This document shows, piece by piece, positions 2,480 to 61,690 of a stretch of 64,000 nucleotides of DNA. The position numbers were made by a program, and so were the translations under genes. The stretch comes from Octopus vulgaris. Taxonomy: Eukaryota. The notes under the pieces are model-generated. The model ran no database searches and had not been told where the DNA came from. It worked only from the letters and a program-made list of their open reading frames with translations. The first letter of the stretch is position 1, and every line of letters begins with the position of its first letter. Where the stretch lies: assembly GCA_951406725.2 (NCBI GenBank), contig OX597815.1, positions 92,938,001-93,002,000 on the forward strand. Reading direction: 5' to 3'.

Positions 2480-3325
2480 CTAGCAGAATTGCCCGGCGTT
2501 GCTCGGGGCTGAATTGCTTGAAAGTACTGTTAATGATTGCACTGAATTATGATGATTATTCAGGCAAATATTGAAATAAGCTTACGGTGGGAAGTAAGGA
2601 CTTAACGCCAAACGTGTGCCATTGCATTGTTTTGGGGGAACCAAATTTCTGATGAGCATTATAGGGGCACTAACTTTAAGTTTGAGAAAGTGTGGTGGTA
2701 GTCCGGGGTGCTCAAAGCAATTGAGTACCTCTATTGGATAGTTGATGACGTCCTCTGGGTCAGGAGTTGTATCGATAGACTGATATACATCGACTTCCCC
2801 AGGAATGAGTTTTAGCATTTCATCATTAATATGGTGAACAGTTTTATTCCTCGGGGCCAGTATAGCCTTTTTGCCAATCCAATCCATATTCTGATAATTA
2901 GCTTGTAAATCTGGGAACACTGCATCTCTGAGATCAGAAGGCGTCTTAACAATGGTACAAATGGAATCGATGGCAATATTACCATTTTCATCCCCTGGTA
3001 TTTTGCCTTCGCCAAGTGCAAGGAGGGTGTGAGGAAATGCTGGTGATGTGATATTACGTCGCATATGAGCACGCATATTGGTGTGAAGTTTGAGAGTTAC
3101 TTCCGTTTATTTTAAAAAATATGCATTAAAATGGAAAAAAATGATGGTAAATTATTTGTAAAATCATAGACTCATCGTAGACGCGCGCTAATACCCAGAA
3201 GGGCTCGATATGAATCACGACTATAAGATACCCGGTTTTGGTTAAACTGCATCGCAAAATGTGGGAGTAGTTAGGAATCTAAATCGGAGTAGACTGACAC
3301 ACAACCTTTCTTTTATATATAAATA
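2480..3325 (-). mobile_element. Non-autonomous Helitron with a PIF1 helicase fragment
   Basis: Minus-strand 3' end is cccgagcaacgccggg (hairpin) then ...gCTAG|t. The 5' end is T(A)TTTATATATAAAAG. The internal helicase fragment is in sense orientation. Confidence 0.9.
2582..3098 (-). pseudogene. Helitron RepHel PIF1-family helicase fragment
   Basis: Motifs TLKLHTNMR, AILAPRN, YPIEVLN..GLPPH.LKLKV.APIMLIRNL...CNGTRL are typical of Helitron PIF1 helicases; truncated at both ends. Confidence 0.92.
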
Positions 3326-3984: not shown

Positions 3985-4190
3985 TTTGCTTTGGGATTTG
4001 GTTTGCAAGATTCTTTATGTGAGTTCGTGTGTTGAAGCATATTCTGTTGTGTCTGGGGTGAGTCATTTTCTTTTTGTGCCTTATAATTTAACACATGCAC
4101 CGGCAAAATTTCCATTTATTTCTTATTTTTATTTCCCCCAAAAGTTTCGTTGCTTCTTGCAGCCTTTTCAATAGTTTTGACTCTGTCCGT
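3985..4190 (-). mobile_element. Short HHR-bearing repeat, same family as 19138-19340
   Basis: Shares tttggtttgcaagattcttt...gtgtgttgaagcatatt...ttgcttcttgca with 19138-19340 and abuts (TA)n. Confidence 0.8.
4138..4174 (-). ncRNA. Minimal hammerhead motif with U3-A8 core (UUGAAAA), partly decayed
   Basis: Minus strand reads cta TTGAAAA g gctgc aagaa gcaac GAA ACTT T tgg, with one mismatch each in stems II and III. Confidence 0.55.
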
Positions 4191-4225
4191 TATTTACATT
4201 ACGTTTCCTTTTGTTTGTTTGTGCA

Positions 4226-4805
4226 CATGTGTGTGTGTGCCTATGAATGTATGTATGTATGTATGTATGTATGTATGTATGTATGTATCTATGTATGTAT
4301 GTATGTATGCGTGTGTATGTATGTATATATGTGTGTGTATGCATATGTATATATGTATGTATGTGTGTGCATTTGTATGTATGTATTCTGCTTAATTCAT
4401 GTACTAGCGTGTCCATGTTTGTGTTTTTTTTAATATATGTGTGTGTATGTGTGCGCATGTGTTTATATATGTATGCATCTCTGTCTCCTTGTGTGTGCAT
4501 GTCAGAGTGTGTGGGCGTGTGTATTTTGCAACTATGTACTGTGTTTGTATGTATGGATGTGCATCTCCATATGTGTGGATGCATGTCTCCATATGTGTCC
4601 TTGTGTGGAGTAAAGTGTGTGTGTATTTATGGTTATGTGTTTCAGTCTCCATTTGCGTACGTGTGGTTGCCTGTTCATATAACCTATATACCTATCCGTT
4701 TGTGTGTTGATCTGTTTAATTTCATAACCATATACTTGCATATATGTGCATATACACATACATATATACACCCACCCATACACACATACATTCATCTATC
4801 TACAT
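4226..4805. repeat. Degenerate (TATG/TG)n low-complexity tract
   Basis: Directly visible. Confidence 0.9.
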
Positions 4806-4867: not shown

Positions 4868-5575
4868 TTATGTATATTCACTATTTAATATTGGGGAAGT
4901 TTCATTTATAAGAACGTACTCCCGTATTTGTCTGAGTGTTGAGTCCTTTGGGTGCTTGGATAAGATGTGGATGTCAAGTTGACCCAGGTTGCATCCATGT
5001 TGGTCTTTAGCATGTTGGTAGAGTATGGAGGACTGTTTTTTGTTGTCATATTGTCTCAGATGTTCATTTAGTTGTTCCGCAATACTCCTAGATGTCTCCC
5101 CTATGTATGTCATGTTCATGTCTTTACAAGCACCTTCTATGCATCTTATGCTGTAAACTACATTTCTAGTTTTACAGTTAATGCCATCGCTAATCCTACA
5201 TACCATGCAGTTATCATTGGTGCATATGGTATTCTCAAAGGGGTACGTCCTACATAGTTGTGATCTGACAGAGTTCCCTAGCTTTTCAACAATCTTAATG
5301 TTGAGTTTGGTCTCCTTCAGAGCATTTCTACATCTATGGGCTAGTTCTCCATGGGCTGTGGCTTCTACAAACATCACTCCTTGATATTTGTCAATTTTGT
5401 ACCACGTGTTCGCCCTGTTTGCTTTGTCACAAGTTCTTTGTATCTAATTCCATTCTTTGTTTCTATATCTAGGGCAGGTACCACTGGTATCATTACATAT
5501 AATGTTACCTGATTTCTTTCTAGACCCCCCCTGTATACTCGAACCCTATCTTTCTGATCATATCCAGAGAACTGC
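4868..5575 (-). pseudogene. Penelope-like retroelement 3' part: RT C-terminus, Cys-rich linker and GIY-YIG endonuclease
   Basis: ORF 4868-5377 has C-x4-C-x2-C..NCKTRNVVYSIRC...TYIGETSRS...NEH...LYQH...H...RQIRE..LIN...P.LN. The upstream frame has QFSGY..KDR. Confidence 0.9.
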
Positions 5576-6243: not shown

Positions 6244-7939
6244 GGATGATATATATAACCATGCACACATACACACACACACGCACATGCATACATATGT
6301 GTCACCAATTATTTTTTTCTTTCTTCTGAGCTACATCTTATGACTGCCTTACCTCATTCTTAACCTCCTCTTATATCTGCCATTGACCTCCTCTTAGCAA
6401 CTCATTACAAACACTCCTAAGCATCTTTGATCTCCATCTCTGTCACTGTATCTCTCTCCCTCTCTCTCTTTCAGTCTCACTCTTCCTCACACTCATCCTT
6501 TATCCATCTCCTACCCTCACATCATCTACATATTTTGTATTTATCTTTCCATACTGCCACTTATTAGCTCCTCCTTCCTTGGTCTCCTGTTTCTTATCAC
6601 ATTTTCCACTGGTACTATTTCTTATCACCTCCACCCCTGAAACTTATATTTACCAATGATCACATCTCCAGCCTTGTTCTCCATTCATTTACATCACCCT
6701 CCATTTATAATGGTATATCACTCTCCTCTCACCCTTCTTGACCTGTCACTATTCTCTCTTCTGCTCACCTGCATATACATAGAGGGTATGCACTGAACAC
6801 ATCTTCACTCTCTTTGTCTTCTCTCTTTCCAGTTATTGCATACAAGCTTACATAATGCAACATAGCCATGTACCTCCACTAAAGCAAAATACCTGTTCTT
6901 GTTCCTCTATCATACTCTAGCCTCTCAACACCTAGCATAAAGTCACCTCCCTCTCTACCACACCCTTACTCAGCTATTTTTTGTCTTATGAGTTATTTAG
7001 CAACTGGAAGTGGAATTAAGAAAAAAAGAAACAGACAAGCAATGTAAGTGGCCCAGGGGTATGAAAACACTAACCTCAAACGATAACAAACTTTGGCTCT
7101 TATTTCTAATTAACTCCCAAATTATATCAACAAATATAAACAATGTTTTCAGAATTTGTTTGTTGATACTCCCAGCTTTCTTCTACAACACCAAACTTAA
7201 GAAGTCTGCTGGTAAACACGATCCAAACATTATTGTCAACATTGATCCGTGTTGGATGAACCGCTTATCTAAAATCATTTAAAAAGGCTGAAGGTATTGT
7301 AACATCTCTCATTAAGACCCTTGTCAGCCACTTATTGGTTATCTATTTAAAGCCATATATGGCTATGGTATATCCACGATTACAGTGTGCCTCTAGTCTA
7401 GTGTGCCATCTTATTCCCAATATTGATTTATAAGAAGCTGTCCAGAGATGTGCAATGAGACAAATAGTCACTGTCTTGAATGTTTTGCTCATCAGGGCAT
7501 CAAATCTTTACACTAAAGGTTTGACATCTAGAAGCTGTTTTGGCACAAACCCATAAGTTTAGCCACTATCTTTCCAATACTGAATTCAGTCATGATTTGA
7601 GTTCAATACCTCACTCATGCATATGTTTATAAAAGAAAAGGAAAAAAAGAACCCCAGAACCCATGACTTTTGGAAATAATTTTTTTCATGCTTAGAATTG
7701 TCAGAACACTTCATGCTTCTAGTAATTTGCGAACACTTCACTCTTTTTGTTTTGTGGTTCCTTTGCTGCTTACTTTTCTGCCCTCTTGTGTACTATACAT
7801 GAATTTTTCACTACCATTGCTATCATTTTTTAAACCTGACTTGCTGCTGTCTGTTCCTCTTTTACCCTCTTCCAATGAGTTGTAGTGCATTTGAGCACTG
7901 TATACACTCTAAGCTCATTGTTGTTTTCCATATCTTTAT

Positions 7940-14159: not shown

Positions 14160-15249
14160 GAGCTCAGAGAGCTCTTACCTCTGCTGGTGACAAAAGGCCT
14201 CTCGCACAGAGTGAAAGGCAGACTGTATGATGCGTGTGTACGAACAGCCATGCTACATGGCAGTGAAACATGGGCCGTGACTGCTGAGGATATGCGTAAG
14301 CTCGCAAGAAATGAAGCCAGTATGCTCTGATGGATGTGTAATGTCAGTGTTCATAATTGACAGAGTGTAAGTACCTTGAGAGAAAAGCTGGACCTAAGAA
14401 GCATCAGTTGTGGTGTGCAAGAGAGATGTTTGCGCTGGTATGGTCATGTGGCGAGAATGGATGAAGATAGTTGTGTGAAAAAGTGCCACACCCTAGCGGT
14501 TGATGGAACCTGTGGAAGAGGCAGACCCAGGAAAACCTGGGACGAGGTGGTGAAGCACGACCTTCGAACTTTAGGTCTCACTGAGGAAATGACTAGAGAC
14601 CGAGTCCTCTGGAAGTGTGCTGTGCGCGAGAAGACCCGGCAGGACAAGTGAGTCCATAACCCGTGGCCTTCTACTTGGGACGGAGCCAGCCTACGTATGC
14701 ATACCTTCCCTTCTTGGGACACAAAACTCTACTTGTGAAGACCTGTTGAGGCAAGTGAGGATCAGAATCGAAATCGATCAATGGAAATTGCAGATGTGTT
14801 ACCAGTGCCGGTGGCATGTCGAAACTCTACTTGTGAAGACCCGTTGAGGCAAGTGAGGATCAGAATGGAAATCGATCAATGGAAATTGCAGATGTGTTAC
14901 CAGTGCCGGTGGCATGTAAGAGAACCTTCCGTTTCGCGACCGTTGCCAGCACCGCCCCGTTTCGTGTCCATTGCCAGCCTCGCCTGGCCCTCGTGCCGGT
15001 GGCACATTAAAAGCACCATCCATTCATGGCCGTTTGCCAGCTCTGTCTGGCACCTGTGCGGGTGGCACGTAAAAAGCACCCATTACACTCACGGAGTGGT
15101 TGGCGTTAGGAAGGGCATCCAGCCGTAGAAACACTGCCAGATTTGACTGGGCCTGATGAAGCCTTCTGGCTTCACAGACCCCAGTAGAACCGTCCAACCC
15201 ATGCTAGCATGGAAAACGGACGCTAAACGACGATGATGATGATGATGAT
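14160..15249 (+). mobile_element. 5'-truncated RTE-clade LINE (ORF2 end, 3' UTR, (GAT)n tail)
   Basis: RELLPLL...KGRLYDACVRTAMLHGSETW...LRWYGHVARMDEDSCVKKC...GRGRPRKTW. The UTR has a ~98 bp tandem duplication at 14722-14915. Confidence 0.95.
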
Positions 15250-19699: not shown

Positions 19700-19776
19700 T
19701 AATAAAATATTAGGGAATAAATCCAAACTTACAGGGAAAAATCAGATTTAGGATTGAATCCAATTTTATAGTAAAA

Positions 19777-20023
19777 TATATTATATTAAATTAGAGATAA
19801 AACCACTATTAGGCAAATCATACAATGAAAAACTTAAGCCAATACATAAGATTAATTAATTTATATTATTTAAATATATATCAATATTATTAAAAAAGAT
19901 AATTTTTTTATAATTTTGATATATATTTAAATAATATAAATTAATTAATCTTATGTATTGGCTTAAGTTTTTCATTGTATGATTTGCCTAATAGTGGTTT
20001 TATCTCTAATTTAATATAATATA
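19777..20023. repeat. Near-perfect palindrome (arms ~121 bp, 5-nt loop)
   Basis: Centre at ~19900 with 2 mismatches. Arm motif gcctaatagtggttttatctctaatt is shared with 44610-44636. Confidence 0.95.
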
Positions 20024-20604
20024 ATATATATATATATACATACATACATATATACATACATACATACACACACACACAACAGAATATATATATACAGCGG
20101 ATCTAGTTTTTTTATTTGCAAAATATGCATTTTTTAAAAGACAGTAAAAATCTGAAAATCGGCTATAATAATAAGGTTTTCCTGTCTAATTGCTATGAAG
20201 GTATGATGTTGTGGAGAAAAAAAAATGGAGGAAAAGTTACAGAAGTTTAAAAATCGAAAAAACTGTGTATTTATAGCCAATAGCGAGACAGAAAGTTCTT
20301 GTGTTTAGTGGAGCAGTGTCAACTTTAAGGTTGTACCCTGTGAAATTGATAGTTTAGCGTCTGTGAAATGACCTCTTCATTGTAGGTTTCTAAATAAACA
20401 GAAATACCTAATAAAATCAACATGTATCATCTTACTGTTTCTTTTGTCTCTTCATTGATGTATGTTTTTATTATTTTTTCTTAATTTATAATATTAATAT
20501 ATTTGTCTGCATGTGTTTATTTTATGCAGTATTATGATTACCTGTCATGTATTTGTGTACATCATTAATGTATAAGTGTGTGTGTGTGAGAGAGAGAGAG
20601 AGAG

Positions 20605-39459: not shown

Positions 39460-42242
39460 AGTTTTCAGAGTCGGCACTGTCAATGTAGGCACATTGAGAT
39501 GTAGGTCTAGTGAGATTGTTGAGATACTTGAACCGAGGCATGTTGACGTATGCTGCATCTAAGAGGTAAGGTGAAGAGTTTCAGCCAGGTTCCTCACAGG
39601 CAAGACACATAAGTATAGAATCTACTGGGAAGGTAACAATGATGGAATAGGTGATGTGCAATAGAATGCTTAAGCTCAGGCTAGTCTTGCAGAATAGTAT
39701 AGCTACAATTATCTCTACCTACACCCCAAAAGCAAGCCTAACAAATGAACAGAAGGACCATTTTTATGATATTCTTCTGCAGGCTACCTCGAAGATGAGG
39801 GACAATGATCTCATCTTTGAGGCTGAGGATTTCAATGGGCATGTTGGATGGCAGCCTGGCTTCTTCTATGGTGTACATGGGTGCCATAAAATTGGTTCCC
39901 AAAACGAAGAGGGAATGAAGCTACTGGGATTCTGTGATGCAAATAACCTATTGATCTGTAGCACCAATTTCAGGAAGCCAGGTAGCCAGATCAATTAAAT
40001 TCTCATCAGAAAGCAGGATGCGTGGTTGCTTTTAAATACAAAGACCCTCCCTGTTGAAGAATGTACACCTACACCCACCCCAGCATAAACTAGTCATTAG
40101 TGACTTTAGACTTCAGACCAGAAGGATGCCAAGAAGCATACCAATCTAGAAAAGAAAGATTTGGAAGCTTAAAGACCCTTCATATGGACAGAGATTTAGG
40201 GACATCCAAATTGAGAAATTTGATGATAGGGAGGAAGAGCTACAGACTTGTGACATAGAGGGCAACTGGGATCTTGTACAGCTTGCTGAGTGACACAGAC
40301 TAAATCTGTGGTTGGTGCAAAGTTCCTTCAAGACCTAGGGTAACATGGTGATAGAACAATACTGTAGACAGGGCCATTAGAGCAAAGAAACAGGCCTGGA
40401 AGAGTTGGGGTAGCAGGGCACTGTATCAGATAGCCAGAAGGGAAGCTAGGAGACAGGTATATCTAGCCAAGGGAGAAGCAGAAAAGACGTTTGACTATGT
40501 TCAGTGATGTGAGGGCCAAACAACTGAAATATTTTGGATTGCAAGACAGTGTGTGAGAGAAAATTGTGATGTCATAGGAGAGAAATGTGTTTGTATGGAT
40601 GATGGTGCACTTGCATTTAATGATTCTGCAAAGGAAGAGGTTTGGTGATACCACTATGAAAGACTGCTGAACATGGAGAATAAATTGGAGGAGGAGAGTC
40701 TGCCAAATGTTGACCCAATTGCGAGACAAATTACCTGAATCAACAGTACCCTTATCGATAAAGCAATTAAGGATATGAAGAGAGAGAAAACCCCGGCCCA
40801 TAAGGCATCATTACTGAGATGCTTAAAATATCTGGTGGTGTGGGTTATGGTTTAGTCACCCGTATTGTAAATCAGGTGGTTCATGGAGTCATACCCAATG
40901 ACTGGTGTACCTGCACCATAGTGAATTGCTACAAAGATATCAAATTGTTGGATCAGGTGATGAAAGTTACGGAGAGGGCCATAGCCCAACTAATTAGGAA
41001 AAGAGTCTAGATGAGATGCATTTTGGTTTTGTTCCAGGTAGAAGCACCACTAATGCTATATTTCTGGTAAGGCAGCTGGAGGAGAAATACCTAACCAAAG
41101 ATAAACCTCTGTACTTAGCATTTGTTGACTTGGAGATGCACCTGGTTTAAGTTTTGGACACATAAAAGATGCAGCAATATCAGAGGAAGTTTAACAGGGA
41201 AACTAGCTTTTGACTCCATCGACTGTCAGGGGGACAAGCTAAAAGTAGTAGATAGCTTCCATTATTTAGGTGACCAAATTAGTAGTGGAGGTGAATGCCC
41301 TGAGTGTAGCTGTGAGAATAAGATTAGGATGGGCAAAGTTCAGAGAGCTCCTACTTCTGTTGGCAACAAAAAACTTATCTCTCAGGCTGAAAGGCAGATT
41401 GTATGATACATGTGTGTGAACAGCTATGCTACATGGCAGTGAAACATGGGTTGTGACAACCGAGGACATATGTAGGCTTCAAAGAAATGAAGCCAGTATG
41501 CTTCGCTGGATGTGTAATATCAGTGTGCATGTTTGACAGAGTGTAAGCATCTTGAGAGAAAAATTAGGCATAAGAGGAATGACAGCACTGGTATGATCAT
41601 GTGATGCATGTGGATGAGGACAGCTGTGTACAGAAGTACCGATCTCTAACTATGGAGGGAACCTGTGGCAGCGGTAGACCCAGGAAGACATGGAACAAGG
41701 TGGTGAATCATGATCTTTGAACTTTGAGTTTCACAGCAACTGAGGTCTTTGGCAATATGCTGTGATTGAGAAGACCTGACAAGCCAAGTGAAATTGTAGT
41801 CATGACTGATGCTGGTGTCATGTAACTGGTACCTGTGTTGGTGGTGCATAAAGAGCACCTTTCAAGCATTGGGTCTCACAGAGGTGAGTTCCTTTAGAGT
41901 GTTGGGCCTCTCAGAGGCGAGTACCTTTTGAGCTTTGGGCCTTATGGAGGTGAGTTCCTTTTGAGTGCTGGGCCTCTCAGAGGCAATGACCGAGACCTTT
42001 GGAATTATGTCGTGCTTTAGAAGAAGATCCCTCAAGCTGAACAAAATCACAGTTGTGACAGATGCCGGTGTCATGCAAATGGCACAATTAAGCAGCCATT
42101 ACACAGAGTAGTTGGCTTTAGGAAGAGCATCGAGCTGTGGAAACTGTGCCAAATCAGACTGGAGTCTGGTTCAGTCTTGCAGCTTGCCAGTCCTGGTCAA
42201 ACTGTCCAACCCATGCCAACATAGACCATAGACATTAAATGA

Positions 42243-42674: not shown

Positions 42675-43992
42675 GACATGGAGAAAGCCTTTGACAGGGT
42701 CCACACTTCTTTATCTGGTGGTCATTGCAGATAAGTAGATGATTGGTTGGTGAGAGCTGTACAAGCCATGTACAGGGATGCTGTCAGTAAGGTGTAGGTT
42801 GGCAGTGAGTATAGCAACAAAGTCAGTGTACAGGATCAGTTCTTAGCATCCTCTTGTTCTTCATAGTCTTCATGGCTAAAACAGAGGAATGTCAAGGTCT
42901 GGAAGCAAAGAGCTTTAGAGTTAATTAAGCAAAGATGAAAATTTTAGTAAGTAGGAAAACAGACAAATCACAAATCCCTTTAAGGAGGTGACCCTGCTCT
43001 ATATGTAGAAACGGTGTAGGTAGAACTCCATAAGGTGTACCCAGTTCAAGCTATGGACACATAAGAAGTGCAGCAATATCAGAGGAAGGTTAACAGAGAA
43101 AGTAGTCTTTGTGTGTAGCAGACTATAGGTACAATAGACACTTGAAATGCTCAGAAAATATAAATTGTCAAAAGGTGGGGGGATACTAAGAAGTAGTAGA
43201 CAGCTTCCATTATCTAGGTAGCCAAGTCAGCAGAGGAGGAGGATGCTCTGAGAGCATAGCTGCTAGAATAACAATGGACTGGGCAAAGTTCAGAGAGATT
43301 CTACCTATGTTGGTAACAAAGGACCTCTCCCTCAGACTGAAAGACAAATTGCATGATGTCTGTGTGTGAACAGTCATGCTACATGACAGTGAGACATGGG
43401 CTGTGACTGCAGAGGACATGCAAAGGCTTGAAAGAAATGAAGCTAATATGCTCTGCTGGATGTGCAATATCAGTGTGCACAAACGACAGTGTAAGTGTAA
43501 AATTGGGTATAAGAGGCATCAGATGTAGTGTGTAAGAGAGAAGGCTGCACTGGTATGGTTATGTGATGTGTATGGACGAAGACAGCTGCATGAAGAAGTG
43601 CTGATCTCTAACTATGGAGGGAAGCCGTGAAAGAGGTAATCTCAGGAAGATGTAGGACAAGGTGGTGAAATATGATCTTTGGATGTTGAGTCTCATGCAG
43701 GTGTTGACAAGTGAGTGCGACTTTTGGTGATTTGCTGTGCTTGAGAAGACACGTCAAGCCAAATAAAATCATAGTCACAGCCAGTGTTAGTGACACATGA
43801 AAGGTACCCCTGCCAGTGGCATAAAAGACACCTTGCACACTCTGGAGTGGTTAGTGTTAGGAAAAGCATCCAGCTGCAGAAACCAAGCCAAAACAATCTG
43901 GAGCCTCATGCAGCTCTCTGGCTTACCAGCTCCAGTCAAACTATCTTACCTATATTAGCATAGGAAACAGATGCTAAATGATGATGATGATG
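42675..43992 (+). mobile_element. Decayed RTE LINE, RT to tail
   Basis: DMEKAFDRV, QGSVLS.LLF, Cys/His finger, FHYLGS, ETWAVT, LHWYG; (GAT)n tail. Confidence 0.92.
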
Positions 43993-44012: not shown

Positions 44013-44046
<34 letters not shown>

Positions 44047-44119
44047 CATATATATACATACACACATGTATGTATGTATATACATATATCATCATTATGT
44101 ATATATACATATATATATA

Positions 44120-44636
44120 TGTAATATTTTTTTATATATATTAAAGAATACGTGTATCATGTTTAATGTATTAATATTAATATTTTTAAAGTTCCTTATC
44201 ACCTCTGACGAGGCCTATGGTTATATATATAAGTATCCTATTTTTAAATGCCTACAACCTCAGTATGTTGACACCTATAGGCAATAAAAATAAAATTAAC
44301 TACTTTTAGCCATAGGCTGAAACAGCTGTAAGAAGTGATTTTAATGATTTCAATAATTTATATTATGACTTTTATAATTTGTATTCTTATCTTATAAGTA
44401 TTGAATTATAAGATATATATGTACGCTATTGAGGTTCTCATTTTAATAATTTAAAAATTAAAAAATTTTTTTTAAATATAAAAATATAATAATTTATAAA
44501 TATAAATTTAAAAATTTCAAATTTTAAATTTTATATTCTATATATATATATTGTACATTATATTATTTATTTTTTTATGTTTTGGTTTATGTCTATCACT
44601 GTTAGTGTTGCCTAATAGTGGTTTTATCTCTAATTC

Positions 44637-44645
<9 letters not shown>
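44120..44645 (+). mobile_element. AT-rich HHR-bearing pseudo-LTR-like element in (TA)n
   Basis: Flanked by (TA)n, hammerhead at 44198-44339, and a 3' motif shared with the palindrome at 19777-20023. Confidence 0.75.
44198..44339 (+). ncRNA. Type I hammerhead motif with intact core and very large loop II
   Basis: atcac ct CTGACGA ggcctatggtta [~83 nt] tagccataggct GAA ACAGCTGT A ag aa gtgat; predicted cleavage after GUA at 44330. Confidence 0.85.
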
Positions 44646-45962: not shown

Positions 45963-47850
45963 ATCATCATCATCATCATCATTTTTACCGTCCGCTTTCC
46001 ATGCTAGCATGGGCTGGACGATTTGACTGAGGACTGACGAACCAGATGGCTGCATCAAGCTCCAATCTGATCTGGGAGAGTTTCTACAGCTGGATGCCCT
46101 TCCTAACGCCAACCACTCCGAGGGTGTAGTGGGTGATATTTAAATTTCACTGGCACAGGAGCCAGTCAGGCGGCACTGGCATCAACCATGTTTGGATGGT
46201 GCTTTTTATGTGCTACCATCATGGGAAGCCAGCCAGATGGCACTGGCATTGACCCATGCTTAAGTGGTGCTTATTACATCCCACCAGCACGGGTGCTAGT
46301 CAGGCCGCACTGGCATCAGCCACAACTACAATTTCCATTTTGATTTCAATCTTGATTTTGATTTTGATTTTACTTGACTCAATAGGTCTTCTCAAGTTCA
46401 GCGAATCGCCCAATGATTCATGGATACTTTTAAATGGGCTGGTTATGTGATACTGGTGTAAGCTACAGTTGTGATATTACTTTACTTGCTGGGTCTTCTC
46501 AATCACAGCATATCTCCAAAGGTCTTAGTCTCCTGTCATTGCCTCTGTGAGGCCCAATGTTTGAAGGTCATGCTTCACCACCTCATCCCATGTCTTCCTC
46601 TTCCACAGATTCCTTCTACTGTTAGGGTGTAACGCTTCTTCACACAGCTCTCATCCATATGCAGCATATGACCATACCAGTGCAGTCGTCTCTCTTGTAC
46701 ATCACATCTGATGCTACTTATGTCCATCATGCTTACACTCTGGTGTGCATGCACACTGACATTACACATCCAGCGAAGCATACTAGTTTCATTTCTTTCA
46801 AGCCTACATATCTCCTCAACAGTCATGGCCCATGTTTCATTGCCGTGTAGCATGGCAGTTTGCACATATGCATCATACAGTCTACCTTTCACTCTGAGCA
46901 AGAGGCCCTTTGTTACCAGCAGAGGTAGGAGCTTTCTGAACTTTGCCCAGGCTACTTTTATTCCAGTGGCAACTCTCTCAGAGCATCCACTCCTACTACA
47001 GACTTGGTCACCTAGGAAGCTGAAATTAGAATTTATTCCACTGGCATGTGATGGAATCTGTCTTCTGAACATCTTCAGTGTTTATTACCCCTGTGCATCC
47101 TTTGATATTACTGCACCTCTTATGTGTCCATAGCTTACACTGGGTACATCTTATGGAGCTTCTACCTCCACCTTTTCTACAGATTGAGCAGAGCCATTTA
47201 CCTGAAGAGGCTTGTGATTTGTCTGCCTTCCTACTTACTAGGACTTTGGTTTTTGCTACATTGACTCTAAGGTCATTCGATTCTAAACCTTGCTTCCACA
47301 CCTGAAATTTCTTCTCTAGTTCTGGTTGTGATTCAGCTATAAGAGTAAGGTCATCAGCATAGAGAATTCTTGAATTCTTCTGTTATTGCCTGGAGGACTA
47401 TGAGGAATAAGAAGGGGCTGAGGACTGATCCTTGGTGAACCCCTACTTCTTAACTATACTCGTTGCCAACCCTCACCTTACTGACAGCATCCCTGTACAG
47501 CTCTCACTAACCATTCGTCTATCCCTAGTTTCCACATTGACCACCAGATAAAAGATCAGGGGACCCTGTCAAAGGCCTTCTCCAAATCAACAAAAGCCAA
47601 GTACAGAGGTTTATCTTTGGCTCGATATTTCTCCTGAGATATATATCAGTGGTGCTTCTGCCTGGCACAAAACCAAACTGCATCTCATCTAGGTTAACTC
47701 TCTCCCTATTCAGTTAGGCTATAACCCTCTCCGTGACCTTCATCACCTGATCCAGCAATTTGATACCCCTGTAGTTATTTCTATCTAAAGCATTACCTTT
47801 ACCTTTGTAGCAGTTAATTATGGTACTGCTACACCAGTCATTGGGTATGA
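45963..47850 (-). mobile_element. Decayed RTE LINE, RT to tail
   Basis: IPNDW...[51 protein letters not shown], Cys/His finger, LHWYGH; (CAT)n at the left end. Confidence 0.95.
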
Positions 47851-60785: not shown

Positions 60786-61526
60786 CAGTTAACTACCACA
60801 TACTGGCCTCACTACTAATGTCATTGCAACATAAATAGGGATGATACCGTGTTGCTACATCTAAACCCACAAAGGGTTTACACCAAGCACTGCATTAGTT
60901 GGACTTTTACAGTGCTACAGCTACTTACAATGAAGAACCATTCAGCATATATAACCGCATACAGCTATGTTGACTGAGCCATTTTCAACCATGGATGAAG
61001 CACATGGCCAGAGATAAGATGCTACTCTGTATACACAGCCATCTGTATAGCTCTACTACACTATAACATAGCAAGTAATATTCTAGTAATATAGTAGTTA
61101 ACTAGTATACTACAGATTATCATTATAACTATTGTGTGTGTACTGGTATGTATGTATATATGTATGCATATATATATATGTGCTTGTATGTAAGTATGTA
61201 TACACATACTTATGTTTACGAGTAGCTTATGATACCAGTGATGTTTCAACAAGTCCCTTCACTGTTGTTTTCTTCTTTTACTATCCTCACCCCCAAATAC
61301 ATTCAAACACTGACCTCCCATATCAACATCACCAGAACAAAGGTTGCTTAACCTAAAAATCGAAAAGTCGAAATGTGGAAGAGAGCATTTTTCATGCTCA
61401 CCCTCCCTCACACACACATACATACATATAAACATAAGTATGTAAATACATTGCAGATATATTTATATATATATATGTATGTGTGTATAAATATTACACA
61501 CACACACACACATACGTATATTCACA

Positions 61527-61690
61527 TAGGCACAGGCATGGCTGTGTGGTTAAGAAGTTTTACTGCTCAACCATGTACTTTTGGATTCAGTTAAACTGTG
61601 TTTTCTTTTGTAGCCTCAGCTAACCAATACCTTGTGACTGAATTTGCTAGATGGAAACTCTATGTACAAATGTTTATGTGTGTGTGTGTG
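61527..61690 (+). mobile_element. tRNA-derived SINE head
   Basis: ggcacaggcatggctgtgtggttaagaagttt...ggattcagt...tagcctcag...gatggaaact. Confidence 0.8.

What the first reader, a model, noticed from the sequence alone, without database searches (positions are those of the whole stretch)
44198..44339. Intact hammerhead with ~83-nt loop II insert
All core nucleotides are present. Stem II is 12 bp (ggcctatggtta/tagccataggct), stem III is the palindrome ACAGCTGT and the site is GUA. The large loop II holds a nested hairpin (tgccta...taggca). This is the best candidate for an active ribozyme in the window and is unusually long for a Penelope-type HHR.
Basis: partly seen in the sequence, partly recalled or inferred. 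Interest (0 to 1): 0.72.

Follow-up and report, generated by a model that had tools for sequence, protein, structure and literature searches.

The report
Long-armed hammerhead in Hydra-clade retrotransposon
This is a real hammerhead (self-cutting RNA) motif in a broken leftover of a common jumping gene; its roughly 100-base side arm is longer than in published relatives but occurs in over a thousand places in this genome, and this lone copy is predicted to cut poorly without a partner.

Summary
The motif is there as described: core CUGACGA 44205-44211, 12-bp stem II, 83-nt loop, palindrome ACAGCUGU, predicted cut after 44330. It lies in a ~430-bp fragment, truncated at both ends, of the 3' repeat of a Hydra-clade Penelope-like retrotransposon. 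A copy 95% identical follows an RT plus GIY-YIG ORF elsewhere in the genome. The long arm is not special to this copy: 1,419 exact long-form motifs against 2,316 short ones, in lineages down to 39% identity that still fold as rods. Published Hydra hammerheads have loops of 3-10 nt. Pair-by-pair covariation did not survive tree-aware tests. The active monomer is predicted 10.7 kcal/mol above the free fold, the dimer 2.7 per strand. No partner lies in the window, the best stem I rests on a private mutation, and 0 of 30 sampled copies start at the cut. So 'best active candidate' is weak. The scan noted long-stem hammerheads on other DNA of this genome before. A long-stem variant of a known kind.

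The parts
44033..44461 (+). Fragment of the 3' UTR and 3' repeat (pLTR) of a Hydra-clade Penelope-like element, truncated at the 5' end and lacking both normal 3' ends
   Evidence: 86% to L005 over 44033-44461; 87% to L149 over 44069-44461; L149 carries RT, EN, UTR, hammerhead and tail in one orientation
44186..44204 (+). Stem I 5' strand. Family register: 2 bp (44203-44204), 5-nt bulge (44198-44202), 3 bp, 8 bp. In this copy the private C44200 offers another register
   Evidence: constrained folds; alignment
44205..44211 (+). Catalytic core strand CUGACGA (C3-A9)
   Evidence: sequence
44212..44223 (+). Stem II 5' strand (12 nt); G10.1 pairs with U11.1
   Evidence: G.U closing in 42 of 44 family copies
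44224..44306 (+). 83-nt distal part of stem II, predicted imperfect rod: 44249-44254/44278-44283 helix, apical hairpin, possible 44231-44235/44301-44305 helix
44307..44318 (+). Stem II 3' strand
44319..44330 (+). GAAA core strand, 8-nt palindrome ACAGCUGU (stem III) and GUA site; predicted cut after 44330
44331..44344 (+). Stem I 3' strand
44462..44640 (+). 3' end of a different, abundant repeat family fused to the fragment in place of its own tail; related loci carry their own hammerhead-like motif upstream; followed by (TA)n
   Evidence: 844 first-look candidates; L214 and L109 show CTGAAGA...TGAAAC upstream
44013..44045 (.). (TA)n-rich run at the 5' junction, the typical Hydra target
   Evidence: target preference from PMC8557442 section 11

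Best explanation
The stretch is a type I hammerhead motif in a truncated genomic copy of the 3' repeat of a Hydra-clade Penelope-like retrotransposon, and it likely cuts, if at all, only as a dimer or with help from the element's protein, while its ~107-nt stem II is a lineage-wide rod that is likely kept as an RNA structure. In the full element the motif lies at the end of a long AT-rich 3' UTR and, in tandem arrangements, about 500 nt upstream of the next start codon (shown from single copies). Two transcripts, or the two repeats of one tandem transcript, would pair through the 8-nt palindrome and swap stem I strands to build two active cores (inferred from energies and from published Penelope hammerheads). 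Most copying uses RNA that was not cut at this site, since copies do not start there (inferred). This copy is a passive, partnerless remnant.
For: Linkage: L149 has RT (1902-2851), EN (4126-4482), UTR, a hammerhead 95% identical to the window (7698-7856) and tail on one strand; L150 and L151 show EN-UTR-hammerhead; L143, L144 and L152 show repeat-tail-ATG-ORF. Hydra motifs RWK, DKT, CxCX5C, CxxC plus CxH and (TA)n flanks are present. Penelope-type inverted 5' pieces in L023, L043, L064, L074. Dimer: active-fold penalty 10.7 kcal/mol as monomer and 2.7 per strand as dimer for this copy; all 12 clusters scored gain about 8 kcal/mol per strand. PMC4209133 reports no monomer activity and low dimer activity for a metazoan Penelope hammerhead; PMC11167929 reports protein-assisted cutting and uncut RNA as the main template. 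Rod kept: 9 of 9 chosen lineage representatives fold at z <= -3.1 at 39-79% pairwise identity (five of them compared), whereas random change of 20-25% of positions leaves z <= -3 in 5-7% of 40 trials per setting. 14 of 27 genomic long motifs have stem I, joined ends and z < -2, against 0 of 73 metagenome matches. Uncut template: 0 of 30 sampled copies begin at the cut; 1 match to a start-at-cut pattern against 185 copies of the post-cut sequence.
Against: No cleavage data exist for any member. Tree-aware covariation tests failed: no pair significant by G-test against 100 simulated alignments (best E about 1), 38 covarying-looking pairs against 45 +/- 14 in 40 nulls, and a median of 1 compensatory difference in 5 independent tip pairs, P about 0.6. 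The favourable counts (75.7% paired, 16 of 38 pairs with two-sided change) used a structure that I drew from those same sequences, and RNAalifold itself predicted only 8 proximal pairs. The nine representatives were picked after I had seen folds; some lineages fold poorly (cluster 3, z -0.3 to -1.9; 13 of 27 fail). Even the dimer stays 2.7 kcal/mol per strand above the free fold. Pfam did not recognise the RT or EN pieces; the clade call rests on motif comparison, not on a tree.
Confidence: 0.72

Rival explanations
1. The long arm has no function: stem II length drifts freely because the core tolerates any closed stem, and rods persist only because unstructured inserts would misfold the core or because fold-back copying regenerates them.
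For: Stem II plus loop lengths in this genome form a near continuum: 16, 21, 25-31, 54-60, 85-88, 94-113 nt. Covariation not significant. The middle helix is partly disrupted in the window's family by a 3' insertion.
Against: Lineages at 39-65% identity keep 97-101 nt and a rod fold; 1,419 exact long-form motifs exist.
Confidence: 0.35
2. This copy is an efficient monomeric ribozyme, the long stem II and the private 5-bp stem I stabilising the core.
For: All core nucleotides intact; 12-bp stem II; window penalty (10.4) is at the low side of the family range 7.7-15.0 kcal/mol (L001 row). Nearest-neighbour energies ignore tertiary contacts.
Against: Only 2 bp of stem III in cis; the predicted ground state pairs CUG of the core with CAG of the palindrome; G.U at 10.1-11.1; the private change falls in the stem I bulge that most lineages keep as AUA.
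Confidence: 0.08
3. The motif is catalytically idle in the family and is kept as a protein-binding or translation element in the leader of the downstream ORF.
For: No copies start at the cut. One sister lineage has U4 changed to C (12 of 14 copies CCGAAGA, 2 CCAAAGA). The motif lies about 500 nt before the ATG. PMC13725137 links type I hammerheads to cap-independent translation (passages).
Against: Core, palindrome, GUA and the first two stem I pairs are kept across lineages whose arms are unalike (25 of 27 with 2-bp stem I), as expected for catalysis; in PMC13725137 the translation effect needed cleavage.
Confidence: 0.15

Closest known systems
Hammerheads of Hydra-clade Penelope-like elements, incl. 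Hydra-1_Obim (Craig et al. 2021, PMC8557442; seen: passages, section 11, supplement parts 1-2 and search hits)
   Same: Type I motif in sense near the 3' end; near-palindromic short stem III (often acag..ctgt); U before GAAA common, with G.U closing in Penelope-13_HM and -17_HM; ORF motifs; (TA)n target.
   Different: Published loop 2 is 3-10 nt and stem II 3-7 bp; here about 107 nt. Published elements are mostly under 3 kb; this family has an ORF span of about 2.8 kb with Asn-rich inserts and a much longer 3' UTR. The Hydra-1_Obim hammerhead and protein are a different family.
Minimal hammerheads of metazoan Penelope-like elements (Cervera and de la Pena 2014, PMC4209133; seen: parts 1-2 of 4 of the text, no supplements)
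   Same: In flanking repeats, mostly solitary truncated copies in thousands, palindromic stem III, proposed dimer action, larger than usual helix II.
   Different: Their helix II is 6-8 bp, with a conserved G10.1-C11.1 pair and an extra nucleotide after A9; here a 12-bp stem with distal rod, G.U closing and no extra nucleotide.
Poseidon PAc hammerhead of Anolis (Frangieh et al. 2024, PMC11167929; seen: passages)
   Same: Tail downstream of the ribozyme defines copy ends; uncut RNA is the template; no reads ending at the cut.
   Different: There the ORF starts inside stem II; here the start codon is about 500 nt downstream; different clade.
Dimeric small hammerhead variants (Lunse et al. 2017, PMC5785218; not held, seen only as cited in PMC6765202 passages)
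   Same: Short palindromic stem III, dimer cleavage, Penelope association.
   Different: Could not check whether its alignments include long stem II forms.

Membership tests
Type I hammerhead ribozyme | CUGANGA, GAAA and UH core in type I order with three stems | tested here: met
Type I hammerhead ribozyme | G10.1-C11.1 closing pair | tested here: not met
   G.U in 42 of 44 family copies; sister lineages have G-C or A-U; G.U also in published Hydra motifs, so not disqualifying
Type I hammerhead ribozyme | Match to an Rfam hammerhead model | tested here: not met
   no hammerhead hit at gathering score or at E <= 10
Type I hammerhead ribozyme | Self-cleavage after GUA | not testable with these tools
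   only contigs were available
Type I hammerhead ribozyme | Tertiary contact between stems I and II | tested here: inconclusive
   a stem I bulge (AUA) and a weak or open stretch 4 bp into stem II recur across lineages, but no contact was shown
Penelope-type (dimeric) hammerhead | Short palindromic stem III favouring dimers | tested here: met
Penelope-like element | RT and C-terminal GIY-YIG endonuclease upstream of a ribozyme-bearing repeat | tested here: met
   L149, L150, L151; EN piece resembles an Atlas cluster with GIY-YIG on 31% of members, score 0.95; Pfam silent
Penelope-like element | Partial tandem and inverted 5'-truncated copies, tail beyond the repeat | tested here: met
   L143, L144; L023, L043, L064, L074; two 3' ends about 190 and 360 nt after the cut
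Penelope-like element | Intron in the repeat or 5' UTR | tested here: inconclusive
   GUAAG overlaps the cut site, but no splice joint from it in four runs of contigs
Hydra clade | RWK and DKT motifs | tested here: met
   IRWK and SDKT in L143, L144, L152
Hydra clade | CxCX5C linker; CxxC and CxH around conserved E and N; no CCHH | tested here: met
   CNCRIRENC, CSLCINE, CLH against section 11
Hydra clade | Insertion into (TA)n | tested here: met
Hydra clade | Placement in the Hydra clade of an RT tree | not tested
   reference proteins were seen only in part in the supplement; similarity judged by eye
Non-LTR retrozyme | Short non-coding tandem units bounded by hammerheads | tested here: not met
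   family is tied to a coding element and no short tandem units were seen among the 30 loci

The most novel reading that the evidence does not exclude
A group of Hydra-clade retrotransposons in this genome has replaced the small loop II of the hammerhead by a selected ~100-nt rod that acts as a functional module: an internal loop 4 bp from the core stands in for loop II in the contact with stem I, and the distal rod is a landing site for the element's RT-endonuclease (or for double-strand RNA factors) that gates cutting until dimer or RNP formation.
Probability: 0.3. Interest if true: 0.55.

Novelty: new variant of a known kind. Interest (0 to 1): 0.3.

Why it matters
What hammerheads do in Penelope-like elements is still open. 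These families offer a natural series with the same core and palindrome but arms of 16 to 113 nt, so the effect of stem II length, dimerisation and protein help can be tested side by side. They also show that descriptor and Rfam searches with short loop limits miss a large share of such ribozymes (1,419 long against 2,316 short exact motifs here). The window copy itself is ordinary debris.

Tried and rejected
Rfam: no hammerhead hit. A TATAACC/GGTTAT pairing between the stem I bulge and stem II is possible in the window's family only and was dropped. RNAalifold on the 27-sequence alignment gave only 8 proximal pairs. Tree-aware covariation: negative. U11.1 as CpG decay of this copy: rejected, 30 of 30 aligned copies have it. 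First guess of Neptune clade: replaced by Hydra. Excess of copies starting at the cut: not found. Sequencing runs: no RNA holder listed; the runs laid are contigs guessed to be RNA, which cannot show ends, strand or level; no cut-site ends or splice joints were seen. Metagenome scan: 119 loci returned, 80 examined (73 distinct matches), none passing all three criteria; treated as chance matches. ORFs beside the sequence-unrelated long-arm groups: none found in the 18 chromosome-C1 stretches fetched (the Hydra pieces in L357 precede a 54-nt motif), so their clade is unknown. No same-strand hammerhead was found downstream of L143, so no complete two-repeat copy was seen. None of the near-full copies read (L143, L144, L149, L152) has an uninterrupted ORF. 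PDB sequence search of the EN piece: best E 0.16. A weak PH_8 Pfam hit at 61352-61591 is low-complexity sequence, not an exon. Lunse et al. 2017 is not held. The window row was mis-indexed by one base; the L001 row and one search are the valid ones. One search crashed and was redone.

Full report
Observation. The region folds at z = -2.9. Rfam gives no hammerhead hit. It is the only motif that passed the window scan; the looser scan listed three weaker candidates as well.

It is a repeat. The 181-nt query has 944 first-look candidates in the 2.8-Gb genome; the 41 matches listed are 92-100% identical, the window itself included. In 30 aligned copies mean identity is 94%. U at 11.1 is in 30 of 30, so it is the family state. 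C44200 is private (28 A, 1 T), so the tidy ATCAC/GTGAT stem I is an accident of this copy; the family register has 2 bp, a 5-nt bulge, 3 bp and 8 bp. Contigs from runs of several coded organisms hold the family and read A at 44200. The genome is probably an octopus; this is inferred from size, repeat content and the scan's notes, not shown.

Parent element. Walking upstream led to single copies with coding sequence. L149 has RT, linker, endonuclease, a long AT-rich UTR, a hammerhead 95% identical to the window and the tail, all on one strand; L150 and L151 show EN-UTR-hammerhead; L143, L144 and L152 show the repeat and tail running into an ATG about 500 nt after the cut. The ORF has RWK, DKT, CxCX5C, and CxxC plus CxH around the conserved E and N, which are the features listed for the Hydra clade in PMC8557442 section 11. 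No RT tree was built, and Pfam did not recognise the pieces. Copies sit in (TA)n, have two 3' ends and often carry inverted 5' pieces. None of the four near-full copies read has an unbroken ORF. The window copy spans about 44033-44461, has no ORF, lacks both normal 3' ends and is fused to the end of another repeat family.

The long arm. The genome has 3,850 exact matches to the 3' half-core, 1,419 to the full core with an 85-115-nt spacer (control 0) and 2,316 with an 8-38-nt spacer (control 1). Among 86 distinct motifs from my loci, one related group of lineages has arms of 92-114 nt with closing pairs G.U, G-C or A-U; one of them is linked to an endonuclease 51-64% identical to the window family's (L093, L095). 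Further long groups of unlike sequence exist; no ORF was found beside them. Lengths of 16-60 nt also occur. The published Hydra list has loop 2 of 3-10 nt; its longest loops, 29-34 nt, are in non-Hydra spike-moss elements. Eight full-text searches found no description of a ~100-nt stem II in Penelope hammerheads, but Lunse et al. 2017 was not held and the supplements of PMC4209133 were not read.

Is the arm selected? For: a 38-pair rod drawn on 27 sequences has 75.7% of cells paired against 31-43% for slid partners, with two-sided changes at 16 pairs; nine representatives fold at z <= -3.1 although identities fall to 39%, while random change of 20-25% of positions keeps such a fold in 5-7% of trials; 14 of 27 genomic motifs against 0 of 73 metagenome matches pass three structural criteria (80 of 119 metagenome loci examined). 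Against: the structure and the representatives were chosen after seeing the folds; RNAalifold found only 8 pairs; no pair was significant against tree-simulated nulls; independent tip pairs showed no excess of compensatory differences. The rod is likely but not proven to be under selection.

Mechanism. Energies put the active monomer 10.7 kcal/mol above the free fold, in which core CUG pairs with the palindrome; a strand-swapped dimer through the 8-bp palindrome cuts this to 2.7 per strand, and all 12 clusters scored show a similar gain. This fits the dimer model and the low activity reported in PMC4209133 (parts 1-2 of 4 read) and the protein-assisted cutting in PMC11167929 (passages). If the 3' ribozyme cut before reverse transcription from the tail, many copies should start at the cut. 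They do not: 0 of 30 sampled, and 1 pattern match against 185 post-cut copies. Either the template is uncut or it is re-joined into a circle; the data do not separate these. Run data were contigs only and say nothing on cutting.

Earlier notes of the scan report Hydra-clade ribozyme ends with unusually long stems on other DNA of this genome; my Hydra assignment preceded that look-up, and nothing was noted near this place or on look-alike sequence.

Verdict. Observation confirmed; interpretation partly supported. A long-stem variant of a known ribozyme in a known retrotransposon clade, abundant in this genome; this copy is a truncated orphan and a poor bet for activity on its own. Interest 0.3.

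Noticed in passing
window 19772-20028: Near-perfect 257-bp palindrome (arms 97% complementary) made of two head-to-head ends of the same repeat family whose end is fused at 44462-44640 (75-78% identical).
   Followed up: partly
window 44462-44640; L214, L109: The fused family has its own hammerhead-like motif with intermediate arms (about 70 nt in L214, about 45 nt in L109). The fusion to the window fragment may be a template switch or a nested insertion with deletion.
   Followed up: partly
window 4871-5443 (-): GIY-YIG endonuclease fragment (Pfam E 3.4e-6), likely another Penelope-like element; no standard hammerhead found near it.
   Followed up: no
window 2585-3106 (-): Pif1 helicase 2B domain hit (E 3e-11), possibly a Helitron remnant (label recalled).
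   Followed up: no
window about 42900-43992 (+), 46700-47400 (-), 14161-14660, 41316-41580: Several decayed LINE-like copies ending in (GAT)n; RVT_1 hit at 47029-47382. One ends just upstream of the hammerhead fragment on the same strand.
   Followed up: no
L037, L056, L093 and kin: A sister lineage has C in place of U4 in the core (CCGAAGA in 12 of 14 copies) with a G-C closing pair and the lowest predicted folding penalty among long forms; a better bench candidate than the window copy.
   Followed up: partly
L143, L149, L132, L134: The ORF carries two long Asn-rich low-complexity inserts between RT and endonuclease and a 3' UTR far longer than in published Hydra elements.
   Followed up: partly
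L094 622-1191 (-), L073 7-72: A second, divergent Hydra-like family (EN 26-32% identical) with a 31-nt arm and a different palindrome.
   Followed up: partly
window 44329-44333: GUAAG at the cut site resembles a splice donor and follows the palindrome in 3,850 exact matches; stem I pairing also explains it; no splice joint seen.
   Followed up: partly
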